From positions 1-31,646 of the IMG/VR virus record IMGVR_UViG_648276671_000019: a stretch of 31,646 bases of DNA. One strand, written 5' to 3'. Numbering within the stretch: position 1 is the stretch's first letter; the number at the start of each line of letters is the position of its first letter. Under the pieces are notes generated by a model that was given only the letters and a program-made list of their open reading frames with translations, made no database searches and had not been told where the DNA came from. The DNA is from a virus (taxonomy: Duplodnaviria; Heunggongvirae; Uroviricota; Caudoviricetes). Both the position numbers and the translations under genes were made by a program. Positions 23,943 through 24,898 of this stretch are shown piece after piece.

Positions 23943-24004
23943 TTATTGATTATTAAAGAAAAATTTATAACCCAAGTAAAAAAGACGCAGAAATCAATTT
24001 TTTC

Positions 24005-24034
24005 TTGACAACCCCATCAATCAAGATCTAACAT
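24005..24034 (+). promoter_or_regulatory. Candidate sigma70 promoter (-35 TTGACA, 18-nt spacer, -10 TAACAT), PL-like position after cI
   Basis: Near-consensus hexamers 55-85 nt upstream of the 24089 ATG. Confidence 0.45.
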
Positions 24035-24036
24035 CA

Positions 24037-24082
24037 CACCATCAATTTTAACTTGATTAATTGTTAATTTTAAATTGATGGT
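24037..24082 (+). promoter_or_regulatory. Imperfect 15-bp inverted repeat (CACCATCAATTTTAA ... TTTAAATTGATGGTG) covering the predicted 5' UTR and Shine-Dalgarno
   Basis: Arms at 24037-24051 and 24068-24082; right arm overlaps the GGTGA ribosome-binding site of the downstream gene. Confidence 0.45.
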
Positions 24083-24088
24083 GATTCA

Positions 24089-24517
24089 ATGAAAGATCTG
24101 ACAACCACTGAGATATCGAACTTAAACCACTTCGAAAAAGAATCCTTTGCATTAAATATTGCAAATCTGGTAGGTGCTGCTCGTACTTTCCATTTGATTG
24201 ATAGTGATCGCTCTAAAGAATTGGGGTTTGAAGTCATGGAGTTTGTTCATGAATACGCCCTGTCTGCTACTTATCCATTACATAATCACATAATCAACAA
24301 ACAACCAAATAAAATCCGCACCCAACGCGAAGCCTGCGGCTTAACAACAGCCGAACTCGCCAGACTGCTCGATCTCGATGAAGAAATTATCATCCAGTGG
24401 GAGAGCGGAGAGTACGAACCAACCATCAGCATGCTTATCCCTCTGGCTAATGTTCTTGGCTGTGATCCAATGTGGTTACTGACTGGTGCTTATAAACAAA
24501 ATCAGGAGGAAGCATAA
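24089..24517 (+). CDS. Hypothetical protein with C-terminal XRE-type helix-turn-helix
   Basis: 142 aa; HTH LTTAELARLLDLDEEIIIQWESGEYEPTISMLIPLANVLGCDPMWLL; unrecognised N-terminal ~80 aa. Confidence 0.7.
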   Translation: MKDLTTTEISNLNHFEKESFALNIANLVGAARTFHLIDSDRSKELGFEVMEFVHEYALSATYPLHNHIINKQPNKIRTQREACGLTTAELARLLDLDEEIIIQWESGEYEPTISMLIPLANVLGCDPMWLLTGAYKQNQEEA

Positions 24518-24518
24518 G

Positions 24519-24710
24519 ATGAAAATGTTCAAAGGCCTTACCAACGAACCGGAAACAGCTTTTCATCACATTGCCGTACTGCTTGAAGCGGGGTTAATCA
24601 TTTCGGCTTCCGGTGATGAAGAATGTGATGAACTTTCGGATGATATCTTTTTACTGGCACAACAATACGCCAGAAGCGCATGCGATGCATTTAAGGAGAA
24701 AAGAACATGA
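24519..24710 (+). CDS. Hypothetical small acidic protein (63 aa)
   Basis: ATG 1 nt after the upstream stop, AGGAGGA Shine-Dalgarno at 24504-24510. Confidence 0.55.
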   Translation: MKMFKGLTNEPETAFHHIAVLLEAGLIISASGDEECDELSDDIFLLAQQYARSACDAFKEKRT

Positions 24711-24898
24711 AAACTCCATTAAATATTCTTGAGGAAGTGGCGGCAGAAATAAAAGAAAACACGTCAATGCTTGAGTTTATCTTTAAAAATTCGCCCGATT
24801 CAGGAGAGACAGACGATTATTTATGCTGCCTCATTCGCTCCATGAATAAAACCTGTGAAATGGCTTACGAGTATATCGACACATTACGCAACGAATAA
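24707..24898 (+). CDS. Hypothetical small protein (63 aa)
   Basis: ATGA start/stop overlap with the previous gene, AAGGAGAA Shine-Dalgarno. Confidence 0.55.
   Translation: MKTPLNILEEVAAEIKENTSMLEFIFKNSPDSGETDDYLCCLIRSMNKTCEMAYEYIDTLRNE

What the first reader, a model, noticed from the sequence alone, without database searches (positions are those of the whole stretch)
23943..24898. Promoter-proximal three-gene cassette after cI with a palindromic 5' UTR covering the ribosome-binding site
A near-consensus promoter sits where PL would be, but no N-like gene or boxB hairpin follows. A 15-bp inverted repeat spans the predicted transcript start to the Shine-Dalgarno of the first gene, so it could act as an operator or as an RNA hairpin that hides the ribosome-binding site. 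The three tightly coupled genes (a 142-aa HTH protein and two 63-aa proteins) occupy the slot where rexAB or sieB-type exclusion genes are found in other lambdoid phages.
Basis: partly seen in the sequence, partly recalled or inferred. Interest (0 to 1): 0.65.

Follow-up and report, generated by a model that had tools for sequence, protein, structure and literature searches.

The report
Prophage early-left promoter and mosaic regulator
This is the repressor-controlled leftward early promoter (the PL/OL equivalent) of a phiP27/phi467-type E. coli prophage plus its first three genes; the layout is mostly ordinary for a lambdoid phage, but the palindromic leader and the shuffled helical-hairpin protein family behind it have not been characterised.

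Summary

**Control region.** This is the OL/PL equivalent of a phiP27/phi467-like prophage. The promoter is TTGACA-18-TAACAT. It sits among four copies of a 17-bp motif that otherwise occurs only between cro and cI, so it is probably cI-repressed. The inverted repeat consists of two of these operator copies in opposite orientation, plus CACC/GGTG.

**Leader RNA (inferred).** The predicted start (24041) lies inside the left arm. PL transcripts would therefore lack the anti-SD CACC. Transcripts reading through from cI, which has no terminator, would fold and hide the ribosome-binding site. Three heteroimmune relatives show the same geometry with unrelated sequences, which suggests IS10-like insulation against read-through.

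**Genes.**
- Gene 1 is a mosaic: a variable N-terminal helical hairpin that travels with the immunity cassette, joined to an invariant XRE helix-turn-helix.
- Genes 2 and 3 are stand-alone hairpins. Each has relatives fused to that same HTH in other prophages.
- Both small genes are under purifying selection but reassort freely, and their function is unknown.

**Verdict.** The genes lie downstream of PL, in the N slot, not in the rexAB slot. No defence or toxin signature was found. Moderately interesting.

The parts
22846..23118 (-). cro-like gene (90 aa, YdaS/Cro-type HTH). Its stop marks the right edge of the immunity cassette.
   Evidence: Pfam YdaS_toxin E = 6e-13 and P22_Cro. DNA to the right of it is about 81% identical in heteroimmune relatives.
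23158..23223 (.). OR region with two copies of the 17-bp operator motif (23158-23174 ATCAAGTTTAAATTAAC; 23207-23223 ATCAAGCAAAAGTTTAT)
   Evidence: Motif scan and repeats D11/I3/I6. The same motif occurs in the OR of a Klebsiella phage whose cI is 79% identical.
23253..23942 (+). cI repressor (229 aa; HTH_3 + Peptidase_S24). No terminator-like structure follows it.
   Evidence: Pfam, phi467 annotation, terminator scans.
23993..24079 (.). OL array of four operator-like 17-mers: O1 23993-24009 (over the -35), O2 24016-24032 (spacer/-10), O3 24041-24057 (+1 to +17), O4 24063-24079 (inverted)
   Evidence: Pattern ATCAAKN6TTRAY with at most 1 mismatch gives 12 hits in 31.6 kb against 4.7 expected. 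Nine of them fall in OR or in 23952-24079.
24005..24034 (+). PL-equivalent sigma-70 promoter, TTGACA-18-TAACAT. Predicted +1 at 24041.
   Evidence: Promoter scan, 10 of 12. Same geometry in sub-types 1b and 1c (TTGACA-17-TAATAT). The start site is predicted, not measured.
24037..24083 (+). Inverted repeat: arms 24037-24054 and 24066-24083 (16 of 18 complementary). It equals O3 plus O4 plus the CACC/GGTG extension (anti-SD : SD).
24080..24084 (+). Shine-Dalgarno GGTGA of gene 1
   Evidence: Read directly from the sequence. P(unpaired) is 0.00 in read-through RNA and 0.24 in RNA started at PL.
24089..24517 (+). Gene 1 (142 aa). N-terminal helical hairpin (codons 1-75, 24089-24313), which belongs to the immunity cassette. 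Invariant XRE HTH (from 24314). Tail AYKQNQEEA.
   Evidence: Pfam HTH_3, phrog_4836, AF2 model with pLDDT 73, mosaic structure.
24519..24710 (+). Gene 2 (63 aa). Stand-alone helical hairpin and a paralogue of the gene 1 N-domain.
   Evidence: phrog_4587 also hits gene 1 residues 16-61. HHalign 92.6%, E = 4.6e-7. 40% identical to the N-domain of P0092. AF2 pLDDT 92.5. dN/dS 0.21.
24707..24898 (+). Gene 3 (63 aa). A predicted two-helix protein of a second sequence type.
   Evidence: phrog_6882. 33% identical (E = 6e-10) to the N-domain of the HTH protein P0088. It is the first gene after cI in phages Fraca, SaltyDalty and a Klebsiella phage. dN/dS 0.08.

Best explanation
The region is the leftward early control region (the OL/PL equivalent) and the first three genes of the early-left operon of a phiP27/phi467-type lambdoid prophage.

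**Shown by sequence and comparison**
- A sigma-70 promoter lies 62 bp after the cI stop codon. It is embedded in four copies of a 17-bp motif found otherwise only between cro and cI. This motif changes together with the repressor type in relatives, so these are the repressor's operators and the operon should be off in lysogens.
- The inverted repeat is operators O3 and O4 in opposite orientation, extended by CACC/GGTG.
- Gene 1 is a mosaic. Its N-terminal two-helix hairpin lies inside the swappable immunity cassette (cro, OR, cI, OL/PL, N-domain). Its XRE helix-turn-helix is invariant across heteroimmune phages.
- Genes 2 and 3 are stand-alone small helical proteins. Their homologues occur as N-domains on that same HTH in other prophages.

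**Inferred**
- Transcription from PL starts at about 24041, inside the left arm. PL mRNA would then lack the anti-SD CACC and gene 1 would be translated. Transcripts that run through from cI, which has no terminator, would carry the whole repeat. They would fold at about -17 kcal/mol and pair the Shine-Dalgarno. The repeat would thus insulate gene 1 from lysogenic read-through, as IS10 and IS50 do against outside promoters.
- Gene 1 is most likely a dimeric early transcription factor, with the hairpin as its dimerisation module. Because its HTH is invariant, it would act on a site common to this whole phage group rather than on the immunity-specific operators.
- Genes 2 and 3 are accessory early proteins. 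Their partner does not depend on the immunity type.
For: **Identity and layout**
- The window is 96% identical to phage phi467 across this region. The gene order is cro (left-facing), then cI, gene 1 and onward towards int.
- cI carries HTH_3 plus S24, and cro is of the YdaS type.
- The promoter scores 10 of 12.

**Operators**
- Nine of the 12 motif hits in 31.6 kb fall in OR or OL.
- A Klebsiella phage with a 79%-identical cI has the same motif in its OR and OL.
- Heteroimmune types carry different motifs, each shared between their own OR and OL.

**Read-through insulation**
- No terminator-like site separates cI from PL.
- The full hairpin folds at -17.3 kcal/mol (z = -3.9), against -7.5 (z = -0.26) when started at 24041.
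- SD P(unpaired) is 0.00 in read-through RNA and 0.24 in PL RNA. Only 0.3% of 300 shuffled upstream segments mask it as well.
- The same pattern, significant against shuffles, occurs with unrelated sequences in sub-type 1c, type 3 (phiP27) and types 5/5b. In these the 5' arm overlaps the -10 hexamer, so it cannot be part of PL mRNA.
- In type 5 the repeat is a perfect 14-mer that does not resemble that phage's own cI operator.
- Types 2, 6 and 7 have a terminator after cI and lack the repeat.

**Mosaic regulator**
- N-domain and cI clusters correspond almost one to one across 168 loci, while the tails and downstream modules shuffle.
- The homology breakpoints lie at gene 1 codon 76 and at the cro stop.

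**Hairpins**
- AF2 models show two long helices.
- The type A and type B hairpins are related at HHalign 92.6%.
- Gene 2 and gene 3 each match the N-domain of an HTH protein by BLAST.
- Both small genes are under purifying selection.
Against: - The transcription start is only predicted. If it lay at or before 24037, PL mRNA would itself carry the hairpin.
- In this window both arms look like operators, so DNA-level binding alone could account for the repeat.
- Within type 1 there are no compensatory changes. Sub-type 1b often has an A.C mismatch at the CACC/GGCG pair and also has a terminator.
- With a broad window (-12 to +3) masking in this window is no better than in shuffles (fraction 0.31). 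Only the SD core is masked.
- In types 4, 8, 1b and the Klebsiella phage the effect is weak or not significant.
- The link between lacking a terminator and having the repeat rests on about eight independent types.
- Fold-back would silence gene 1 only. Genes 2 and 3 have their own strong SDs.
- No DNA target was found for the invariant HTH.
- N-domain linkage to cI is what adjacency alone would produce, and it carries no functional information. The Klebsiella phage pairs a type-1 cI with a different first gene.
Confidence: 0.55

Rival explanations
1. The inverted repeat is purely a DNA element. O3 and O4 are two repressor (and Cro) operators downstream of the start site that strengthen repression or block RNA polymerase. 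The RNA complementarity to the SD is a by-product.
For: - Both arms match the 17-mer shared with OR.
- O3 is conserved in sub-types 1a-1c and in the Klebsiella phage, and O4 is still operator-like in 1b.
- There are no compensatory changes within type 1.
- Masking is not significant with a broad window.
Against: - The CACC/GGTG extension lies outside the 17-mers.
- Type 5 has a perfect 14-bp repeat of the same geometry that does not resemble its cI operator.
- The Klebsiella phage lacks O4 but keeps anti-SD:SD pairing.
- Three unrelated sequence families place an anti-SD at the -10/+1.
Confidence: 0.3
2. The hairpin forms in the PL transcript itself because the start is at or before 24037. It would act as a cis translational brake or RNase III site on gene 1, like the stem-loop in the lambda N leader.
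For: From 24037 the RNA folds at -17.3 kcal/mol with z = -3.9 and pairs GGUG. Start sites can vary by a few nucleotides.
Against: - The -10 ends at 24034, so +1 at 24037 would be only 3 nt downstream, which is atypical.
- In types 3 and 5 the 5' arm overlaps the -10 hexamer or the spacer, so it cannot be transcribed from PL.
- No Rfam family matches.
Confidence: 0.1
3. Genes 2 and 3 are SinI-like antagonists. As free copies of the regulator's hairpin domain they would form mixed helical bundles with hairpin-HTH regulators and titrate them. The target could be their own gene 1 protein or the regulators of incoming heteroimmune phages.
For: - Gene 2 is a paralogue of the gene 1 N-domain. The models show the same two-helix hairpin.
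- Gene 2 and gene 3 each have homologues fused to the invariant HTH.
- Other downstream modules also carry free type-A hairpins, of 66 aa and 121 aa.
Against: - The free hairpin modules reassort against every N-domain type, so there is no partner co-variation.
- Identity to the fused versions is only 33-40%.
- Phages Fraca, SaltyDalty and the Klebsiella phage have these hairpins but no HTH protein.
- There is no sequence match to SinR or SinI.
Confidence: 0.2
4. The hairpins, including the gene 1 N-domain, are independent early effectors aimed at a constant host target or a conserved phage target. Examples would be host takeover or anti-defence. The HTH would be an optional fused module.
For: - At least five sequence-unrelated hairpin types occupy the same first-after-PL position.
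- They reassort freely.
- They occur without any HTH in other phages.
- They are small, acidic and expressed early.
- The taxonomic range is narrow: 19 clusters among 1.84 billion representatives.
Against: There is no match to any known anti-defence or host-takeover family. The model does not explain why the HTH is so strictly conserved.
Confidence: 0.25
5. The cassette is a lysogen-expressed exclusion, abortive-infection or toxin-antitoxin module, like rexAB, sieB or paaR-paaA-parE.
For: - It sits next to cI.
- With no terminator, genes 2 and 3 could be made at a low level from cI read-through, since they have their own SDs.
- The HTH gives weak hits to antitoxin-type XRE models.
- A ParE-like gene lies 0.7 kb downstream.
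Against: - A promoter with four operator-like sites separates the genes from cI.
- No toxin, defence or membrane domain was found.
- The 63-aa proteins are acidic helical hairpins.
- The module is replaced by unrelated modules in close relatives.
Confidence: 0.07

Closest known systems
Lambda OL/PL and the swappable immunity region (imm434, imm21) — from established knowledge
   Same: - The promoter lies beyond cI and reads away from it.
- It has several operator copies shared with OR.
- The operators, cI and cro travel as one exchangeable cassette bounded by conserved DNA.
   Different: - There are four sites rather than three, and two of them lie downstream of +1 in inverted orientation.
- There are no rex genes and no terminator between cI and PL.
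- The first gene is an XRE HTH protein, not N, and there is no nutL.
- The left cassette boundary falls inside the first gene, at a domain junction.
PL933P/OL1-3 of cryptic prophage CP-933P (PaaR2/YdaS/YdaT; PMC8630535)
   Same: It is an E. coli lambdoid immunity region with a YdaS-type Cro. A PL-like promoter carrying repeated operators was shown there to be repressed by the CI analogue and by YdaS. The authors state that the ORFs downstream of PL have no assignable function.
   Different: There the CI analogue is PaaR2, followed by a paaA2-parE2 toxin-antitoxin pair. Here cI is a classical HTH+S24 repressor with nothing between it and PL. I did not test whether the CP-933P downstream ORFs are homologous to genes 1-3.
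IS10/IS50 fold-back inhibition (Davis, Simons & Kleckner 1985; Kleckner 1990) — from my own knowledge
   Same: An inverted repeat whose 3' arm covers the ribosome-binding site. The element's own promoter starts transcription inside or after the 5' arm. Only transcripts entering from outside would be translationally silent.
   Different: The context is a phage early operon sitting behind the repressor gene, not a transposase. The arms double as operator copies. The start site and the effect are predictions only.
SinR/SinI of Bacillus subtilis — from my own knowledge
   Same: An XRE HTH joined to a two-helix multimerisation domain, with an adjacent small protein homologous to that domain.
   Different: - The domain order is reversed, with the hairpin at the N-terminus.
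- There is no sequence similarity.
- The small proteins do not co-vary with the regulator's hairpin type.
acr-aca operons (anti-CRISPR genes with an Aca HTH autorepressor) — from my own knowledge
   Same: A conserved XRE HTH linked to variable small early proteins behind a strong promoter that carries inverted repeats.
   Different: The HTH is invariant while the promoter repeats differ by immunity type, so it cannot be the protein that reads them. There is no match to known Acr or Aca models.

Membership tests
Lambdoid OL/PL early-left control region | Sigma-70 promoter beyond cI, transcribing away from the cI-cro switch towards int | tested here: met
   TTGACA-18-TAACAT at 24005-34. All genes downstream are on the + strand, running towards xerC/int in phi467.
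Lambdoid OL/PL early-left control region | Several operator copies overlapping the promoter that share their motif with OR | tested here: met
   Four 17-mers at 23993-24079 and two in OR. Nine of 12 window-wide hits cluster in these two regions.
Lambdoid OL/PL early-left control region | Operator motif co-varies with repressor type among relatives | tested here: met
   The motif is the same in a phage whose cI is 79% identical. Immunity types 2, 3, 5 and 8 have different motifs, each shared between their own OR and OL.
Lambdoid OL/PL early-left control region | Repression of the promoter by cI in vivo or in vitro | not testable with these tools
   Needs a footprint or reporter assay.
Lambda N/nut antitermination | First PL gene is a small arginine-rich N protein, preceded by boxA/boxB | tested here: not met
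   Gene 1 is an HTH_3 protein and genes 2 and 3 are acidic hairpins. There is no Rfam hit. The repeat is AU-rich with an 11-nt loop, unlike boxB.
RexAB / SieB-type prophage exclusion genes | Co-transcribed with cI in lysogens (rexAB lies between cI and PL) | tested here: not met
   The promoter with operator-like sites lies between cI and the genes.
RexAB / SieB-type prophage exclusion genes | Sequence or domain similarity to known defence proteins | tested here: not met
   PADLOC hits cover only the generic HTH of gene 1 and there are none for genes 2 and 3. Pfam, NCBIfam and PDB give nothing.
IS10/IS50-type fold-back inhibition | Inverted repeat whose 3' arm covers the SD or start codon | tested here: met
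   The right arm ends in GGTG of GGTGA.
IS10/IS50-type fold-back inhibition | The element's own promoter starts transcription inside or after the 5' arm | tested here: inconclusive
   Predicted +1 at 24041 is 4 nt into the arm. In types 3 and 5 the arm overlaps the -10. No start site has been measured.
IS10/IS50-type fold-back inhibition | Upstream transcription can enter, and the SD is masked only in such transcripts | tested here: met
   There is no terminator-like site after cI. SD P(unpaired) is 0.00 in read-through RNA against 0.24 in PL RNA, with a shuffle fraction of 0.003. This is in silico only.
SinR/SinI-type regulator and antagonist | XRE HTH plus a two-helix oligomerisation domain, with an adjacent small paralogue of that domain | tested here: met
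   AF2 models. HHalign 92.6% between the gene 1 N-domain type and gene 2. The domain order is reversed.
SinR/SinI-type regulator and antagonist | Small protein matched to its regulator (co-variation), and sequence membership in the family | tested here: not met
   The same genes 2 and 3 occur with six different N-domain types. No SinI or SinR Pfam hit.
Type II / three-component toxin-antitoxin (paaR-paaA-parE-like) | A toxin domain next to an HTH regulator or antitoxin | tested here: not met
   Genes 2 and 3 have no toxin family hit and no match to PDB sequences, including at E up to 10.
acr-aca operon | The conserved HTH binds inverted repeats in its own promoter | tested here: not met
   The HTH is invariant while the promoter repeats differ completely between immunity types. 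This is an inference from sequence, not a binding test.

The most novel reading that the evidence does not exclude
The diversifying helical-hairpin modules are a protein-level interference system between competing prophages. Each phage's early regulator would dimerise through an immunity-linked hairpin. The free hairpins (genes 2 and 3, and the 66- and 121-aa versions elsewhere) would act as dominant-negative decoys. They would poison the hairpin-HTH regulators of heteroimmune relatives that share the invariant HTH. This would be a new form of superinfection interference acting on a regulator rather than on DNA entry or repressor immunity.
Probability: 0.1. Interest if true: 0.75.

Novelty: new variant of a known kind. 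Interest (0 to 1): 0.4.

Why it matters
**N-independent early regions.** phiP27-type early regions occur in many Stx-converting and other E. coli prophages; the invariant HTH segment of gene 1 is found in 351 of 5426 complete genomes. They lack N, and the genes behind PL are uncharacterised. The CP-933P study likewise could assign no function to the ORFs behind its PL (PMC8630535). Defining the operator array, the cassette boundaries and a testable regulator gives a starting point for how such phages run their early-left operon, which bears on prophage induction.

**Promoter-embedded anti-SD.** If this device is real, it is a simple and possibly general way for temperate phages to keep a lytic gene silent when it sits directly behind the constitutively transcribed repressor gene without a terminator.

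**Domain-boundary recombination.** The invariant HTH joined to shuffled hairpins is a clear case of recombination at a domain boundary inside a gene.

Tried and rejected
1. **PsrA/PsrB prophage regulators of O157.** These are AraC-type and unrelated.
2. **paaR2-paaA2-parE2.** Genes 2 and 3 have no match in PDB sequences even at E up to 10, and no toxin family.
3. **Direct BLAST among the three proteins.** It found nothing. Only profile methods link gene 2 to the gene 1 N-domain. Gene 3 and hairpin types D and E could not be linked to types A/B.
5. **Rfam.** No family matched.
6. **Covariation in the repeat.** Type-1 variants show no compensatory pairs, so the test is uninformative.
7. **Uniform -12..+3 accessibility window.** Masking in this window is not distinguishable from shuffles. 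Only the SD-core measure is significant.
8. **CII-like role for gene 1.** The idea came from the label on phrog_4836 and a 'putative CII repressor' annotation in phage ASU11. I found no conserved target site in the conserved DNA to the right of cro, so it remains an untested idea.
9. **Deep search with gene 2.** It found only 19 clusters, so the family is narrow and gives no functional clue. It did turn up one divergent hairpin-HTH fusion, P0139.
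Full report
**1. What is there**

The window is a prophage 96% identical over this region to Escherichia phage phi467, and it has the phiP27 type of early region.

The local order is:
- a cro-like gene (22846-23118, minus strand, YdaS/Cro family);
- a 134-bp intergenic region;
- cI (23253-23942; HTH_3 + Peptidase_S24);
- a 146-bp spacer;
- three plus-strand genes: gene 1 (24089-24517, 142 aa), gene 2 (24519-24710, 63 aa) and gene 3 (24707-24898, 63 aa).

All following genes are also on the plus strand and, in phi467, run on to the recombinase. 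These are therefore the first genes of the early-left operon, which is the position of N in lambda. It is not the rexAB position, which lies between cI and PL.

The promoter TTGACA-18-TAACAT (24005-24034) is the best sigma-70 match in 2.6 kb (10 of 12). The number of promoter-like sites in that stretch is not above chance. Its credibility therefore rests on position and on conservation of the -35 and of the geometry in related sub-types.

The inverted repeat is real and longer than reported: 24037-24054 and 24066-24083, 16 of 18 complementary.

**2. The repeat is built from operator copies**

A 17-bp motif (ATCAAKN6TTRAY) occurs:
- twice between cro and cI (23158, 23207);
- four times around the promoter: O1 at 23993 over the -35, O2 at 24016 over the spacer and -10, O3 at 24041 and O4 at 24063 (inverted).

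With at most one mismatch there are 12 hits in 31.6 kb against 4.7 expected. Nine of them fall in these two short regions.

The motif tracks the repressor:
- A Klebsiella phage whose cI is 79% identical carries the same motif in its OR and around its PL.
- Relatives with unrelated repressors carry other motifs, each shared between their own OR and OL. Type 2 has ATCGATAAACCGAT, type 5 has TAGCA-N4-TGCTA and type 8 has TATCAA-N6-TTGATA.

This is the signature of OL/PL. The closest characterised parallel in E. coli is PL933P with OL1-3 in CP-933P, which was shown to be repressed by the CI analogue and by YdaS (PMC8630535). The repeat in this window equals O3 plus O4, plus four extra bases on each side: CACC and GGTG.

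**3. RNA level**

Folded from 24037, the leader forms a -17.3 kcal/mol hairpin (z = -3.9) that pairs GGUG of the Shine-Dalgarno. Folded from the expected start, the seventh base after the -10 (24041), the energy is -7.5 kcal/mol (z = -0.26). The masking part of the structure therefore depends on bases that PL transcripts should not contain.

No terminator-like structure separates cI from PL. Transcripts of cI should therefore read into the leader and contain the whole repeat.

I compared other immunity types, obtained from 160 IMG/VR loci, phiP27, E. coli genomes and contig look-ups.

Types with the same geometry:
- Sub-type 1c.
- Type 3 (phiP27): TTGATACCTTAGTTAC / GTAACTGAGGTATCA.
- Types 5 and 5b: a perfect TACATTCACCTCAC / GTGAGGTGAATGTA.
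- In each, the 3' arm lies on the SD and the 5' arm lies on the -10 or discriminator.
- In types 3 and 5 the 5' arm overlaps the -10 hexamer, so it cannot be in PL mRNA.
- In type 5 it does not resemble that phage's cI operator.

Objective test:
- I chose the SD core by predicted pairing to the 16S rRNA 3' end.
- I shuffled the 40 nt upstream of +1 300 times.
- The SD is fully paired in read-through RNA in types 1a, 1c, 3, 5 and 5b (P(unpaired) = 0.00).
- At most 0.3% of shuffles mask it as well.
- It opens to 0.24-0.61 in RNA started at PL.

Types without the pattern:
- Types 2, 6 and 7 have a terminator after cI and show no masking.

Caveats:
- The effect is weak or not significant in sub-type 1b (which also has a terminator), the Klebsiella phage, and types 4 and 8.
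- A broad -12..+3 window does not separate this window from shuffles.
- There are no compensatory substitutions within type 1.

My reading is that the repeat is an operator pair that has also been shaped to insulate gene 1 from lysogenic read-through. I give this about 0.45. It follows the principle known from IS10 and IS50 (my own knowledge). A DNA-only role remains a serious rival.

**4. Gene 1 is a mosaic whose N-domain belongs to the immunity cassette**

Homologues share a nearly invariant HTH core (RTQREACGLTTAELARLLDLDEEIIIQWESGEYEPTISMLIPLANVLGCDP), present in one or two copies. The rest varies:
- There are at least eight unrelated N-terminal segments of 60-90 aa.
- There are several alternative C-terminal tails.

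DNA homology to heteroimmune relatives starts exactly at codon 76 (24314), where the Pfam HTH_3 match begins. On the other side it resumes at the cro stop. The exchangeable immunity cassette is therefore 22846-24314: cro, OR, cI, OL/PL and the gene 1 N-domain.

N-domain type and cI type correspond almost one to one over 168 loci (some are the same contigs fetched twice). Tails and downstream modules shuffle freely. This linkage is what adjacency would produce, and it proves no interaction. The Klebsiella phage combines a type-1 cI with a different first gene.

AF2 (pLDDT 73) gives two long helices (residues 14-36 and 40 to about 62), a linker and a five-helix XRE domain. Structure searches find only the HTH.

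Its target must be common to the phage group or to the host. I did not find it.

**5. Genes 2 and 3**

Evidence on each gene:
- Gene 2 (phrog_4587) is a confident two-helix hairpin (pLDDT 92.5).
- Gene 2 is a paralogue of the gene 1 N-domain. phrog_4587 hits gene 1 residues 16-61, and HHalign gives 92.6% (E = 4.6e-7).
- Gene 2 is 40% identical to the N-domain of the double-HTH protein P0092.
- Gene 3 (phrog_6882) is 33% identical (E = 6e-10) to the N-domain of P0088.
- Gene 3's type is the first gene after cI, without any HTH, in phages Fraca, SaltyDalty and Klebsiella ST16-OXA48phi5.3.

Other modules found downstream of gene 1 in relatives hold further free hairpins: a 66-aa protein and the C-terminal half of a 121-aa protein, both of type A.

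Genes 2 and 3 always travel together behind the tail AYKQNQEEA. They occur with six different immunity and N-domain types. Both are under purifying selection (dN/dS 0.21 and 0.08). The gene 2 family is narrow, with 19 clusters among 1.84 billion representatives.

The architecture resembles SinR/SinI. The free reassortment argues against a matched regulator-antagonist pair. It favours either a constant partner or action on other phages' regulators.

There is no evidence for defence, toxin or exclusion functions.

**6. Verdict**

The PL position, the lack of N and the operator and/or RBS-masking ideas hold. The rexAB/sieB comparison does not.
- The control region is an ordinary member of a known kind.
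- The uncharacterised parts are the promoter-embedded anti-SD and the hairpin/HTH mosaic family. Both can be tested directly.

Noticed in passing
window 19889-20815 (-), inside the helicase gene 19232-21817: The DEAD/ResIII helicase is 861 aa, against 552 aa in phi467. The flanks are 98% and 86% identical. The difference is a clean 309-aa insertion that starts with Cys335 and ends with His-Asn643 followed by Cys, which is the signature of an intein. No Pfam Hint/intein model hit at E < 0.001.
   Followed up: partly
window 24973-25071 (+): An unlisted 32-aa ORF (MKNKSAYKTALLMASAGYWSIAILYLRKAYGK) with its own GGTGGTGA SD. Relatives have a 37-aa counterpart ending ...LRKAYGK/R at the same place, just before the 119-aa or 62-aa gene, so it is probably a real small gene.
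   Followed up: partly
window 25075-25434 (+): The 119-aa protein (phrog_1737, no Pfam hit) starts with an arginine-rich stretch (NTYRRRIAVAALHRIKRK) that faintly recalls the RNA-binding motif of N proteins. Just upstream, at 24953-24963, CCTGAAAATGG resembles part of lambda boxB. The resemblance is weak and was not tested.
   Followed up: no
window 25626-25844 (+): A 72-aa ParE-like toxin-domain protein (PF24732, E = 1.4e-17) lies in the early-left operon and is conserved in relatives. No obvious antitoxin was identified.
   Followed up: no
window 22298-22539: The intergenic stretch between the 122-aa and 97-aa genes to the right of cro is highly conserved in heteroimmune relatives. It contains a palindrome, TAGATCGAGATCTA. 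It could be a regulatory site or an origin element.
   Followed up: no
relatives L054-L064, L088, L092 (proteins P0006, P0088, P0072): About 230-aa forms of gene 1 carry two tandem XRE HTH domains. The 'Clade VIII CI' proteins in PMC8951638, which have two HTH domains and no S24 domain, may be this protein rather than the true repressor. In the loci I examined, a separate S24-type cI sits immediately upstream in most cases (L092 instead has a 150-aa cI with only a weak HTH_3 hit on record).
   Followed up: no
window 26479-27306 and 27347-28099 (+): An SPFH/Band-7 lipoprotein-like gene and an ORF6N-domain gene lie further down the early-left operon, as in phiP27, phi467 and phage Fraca.
   Followed up: no
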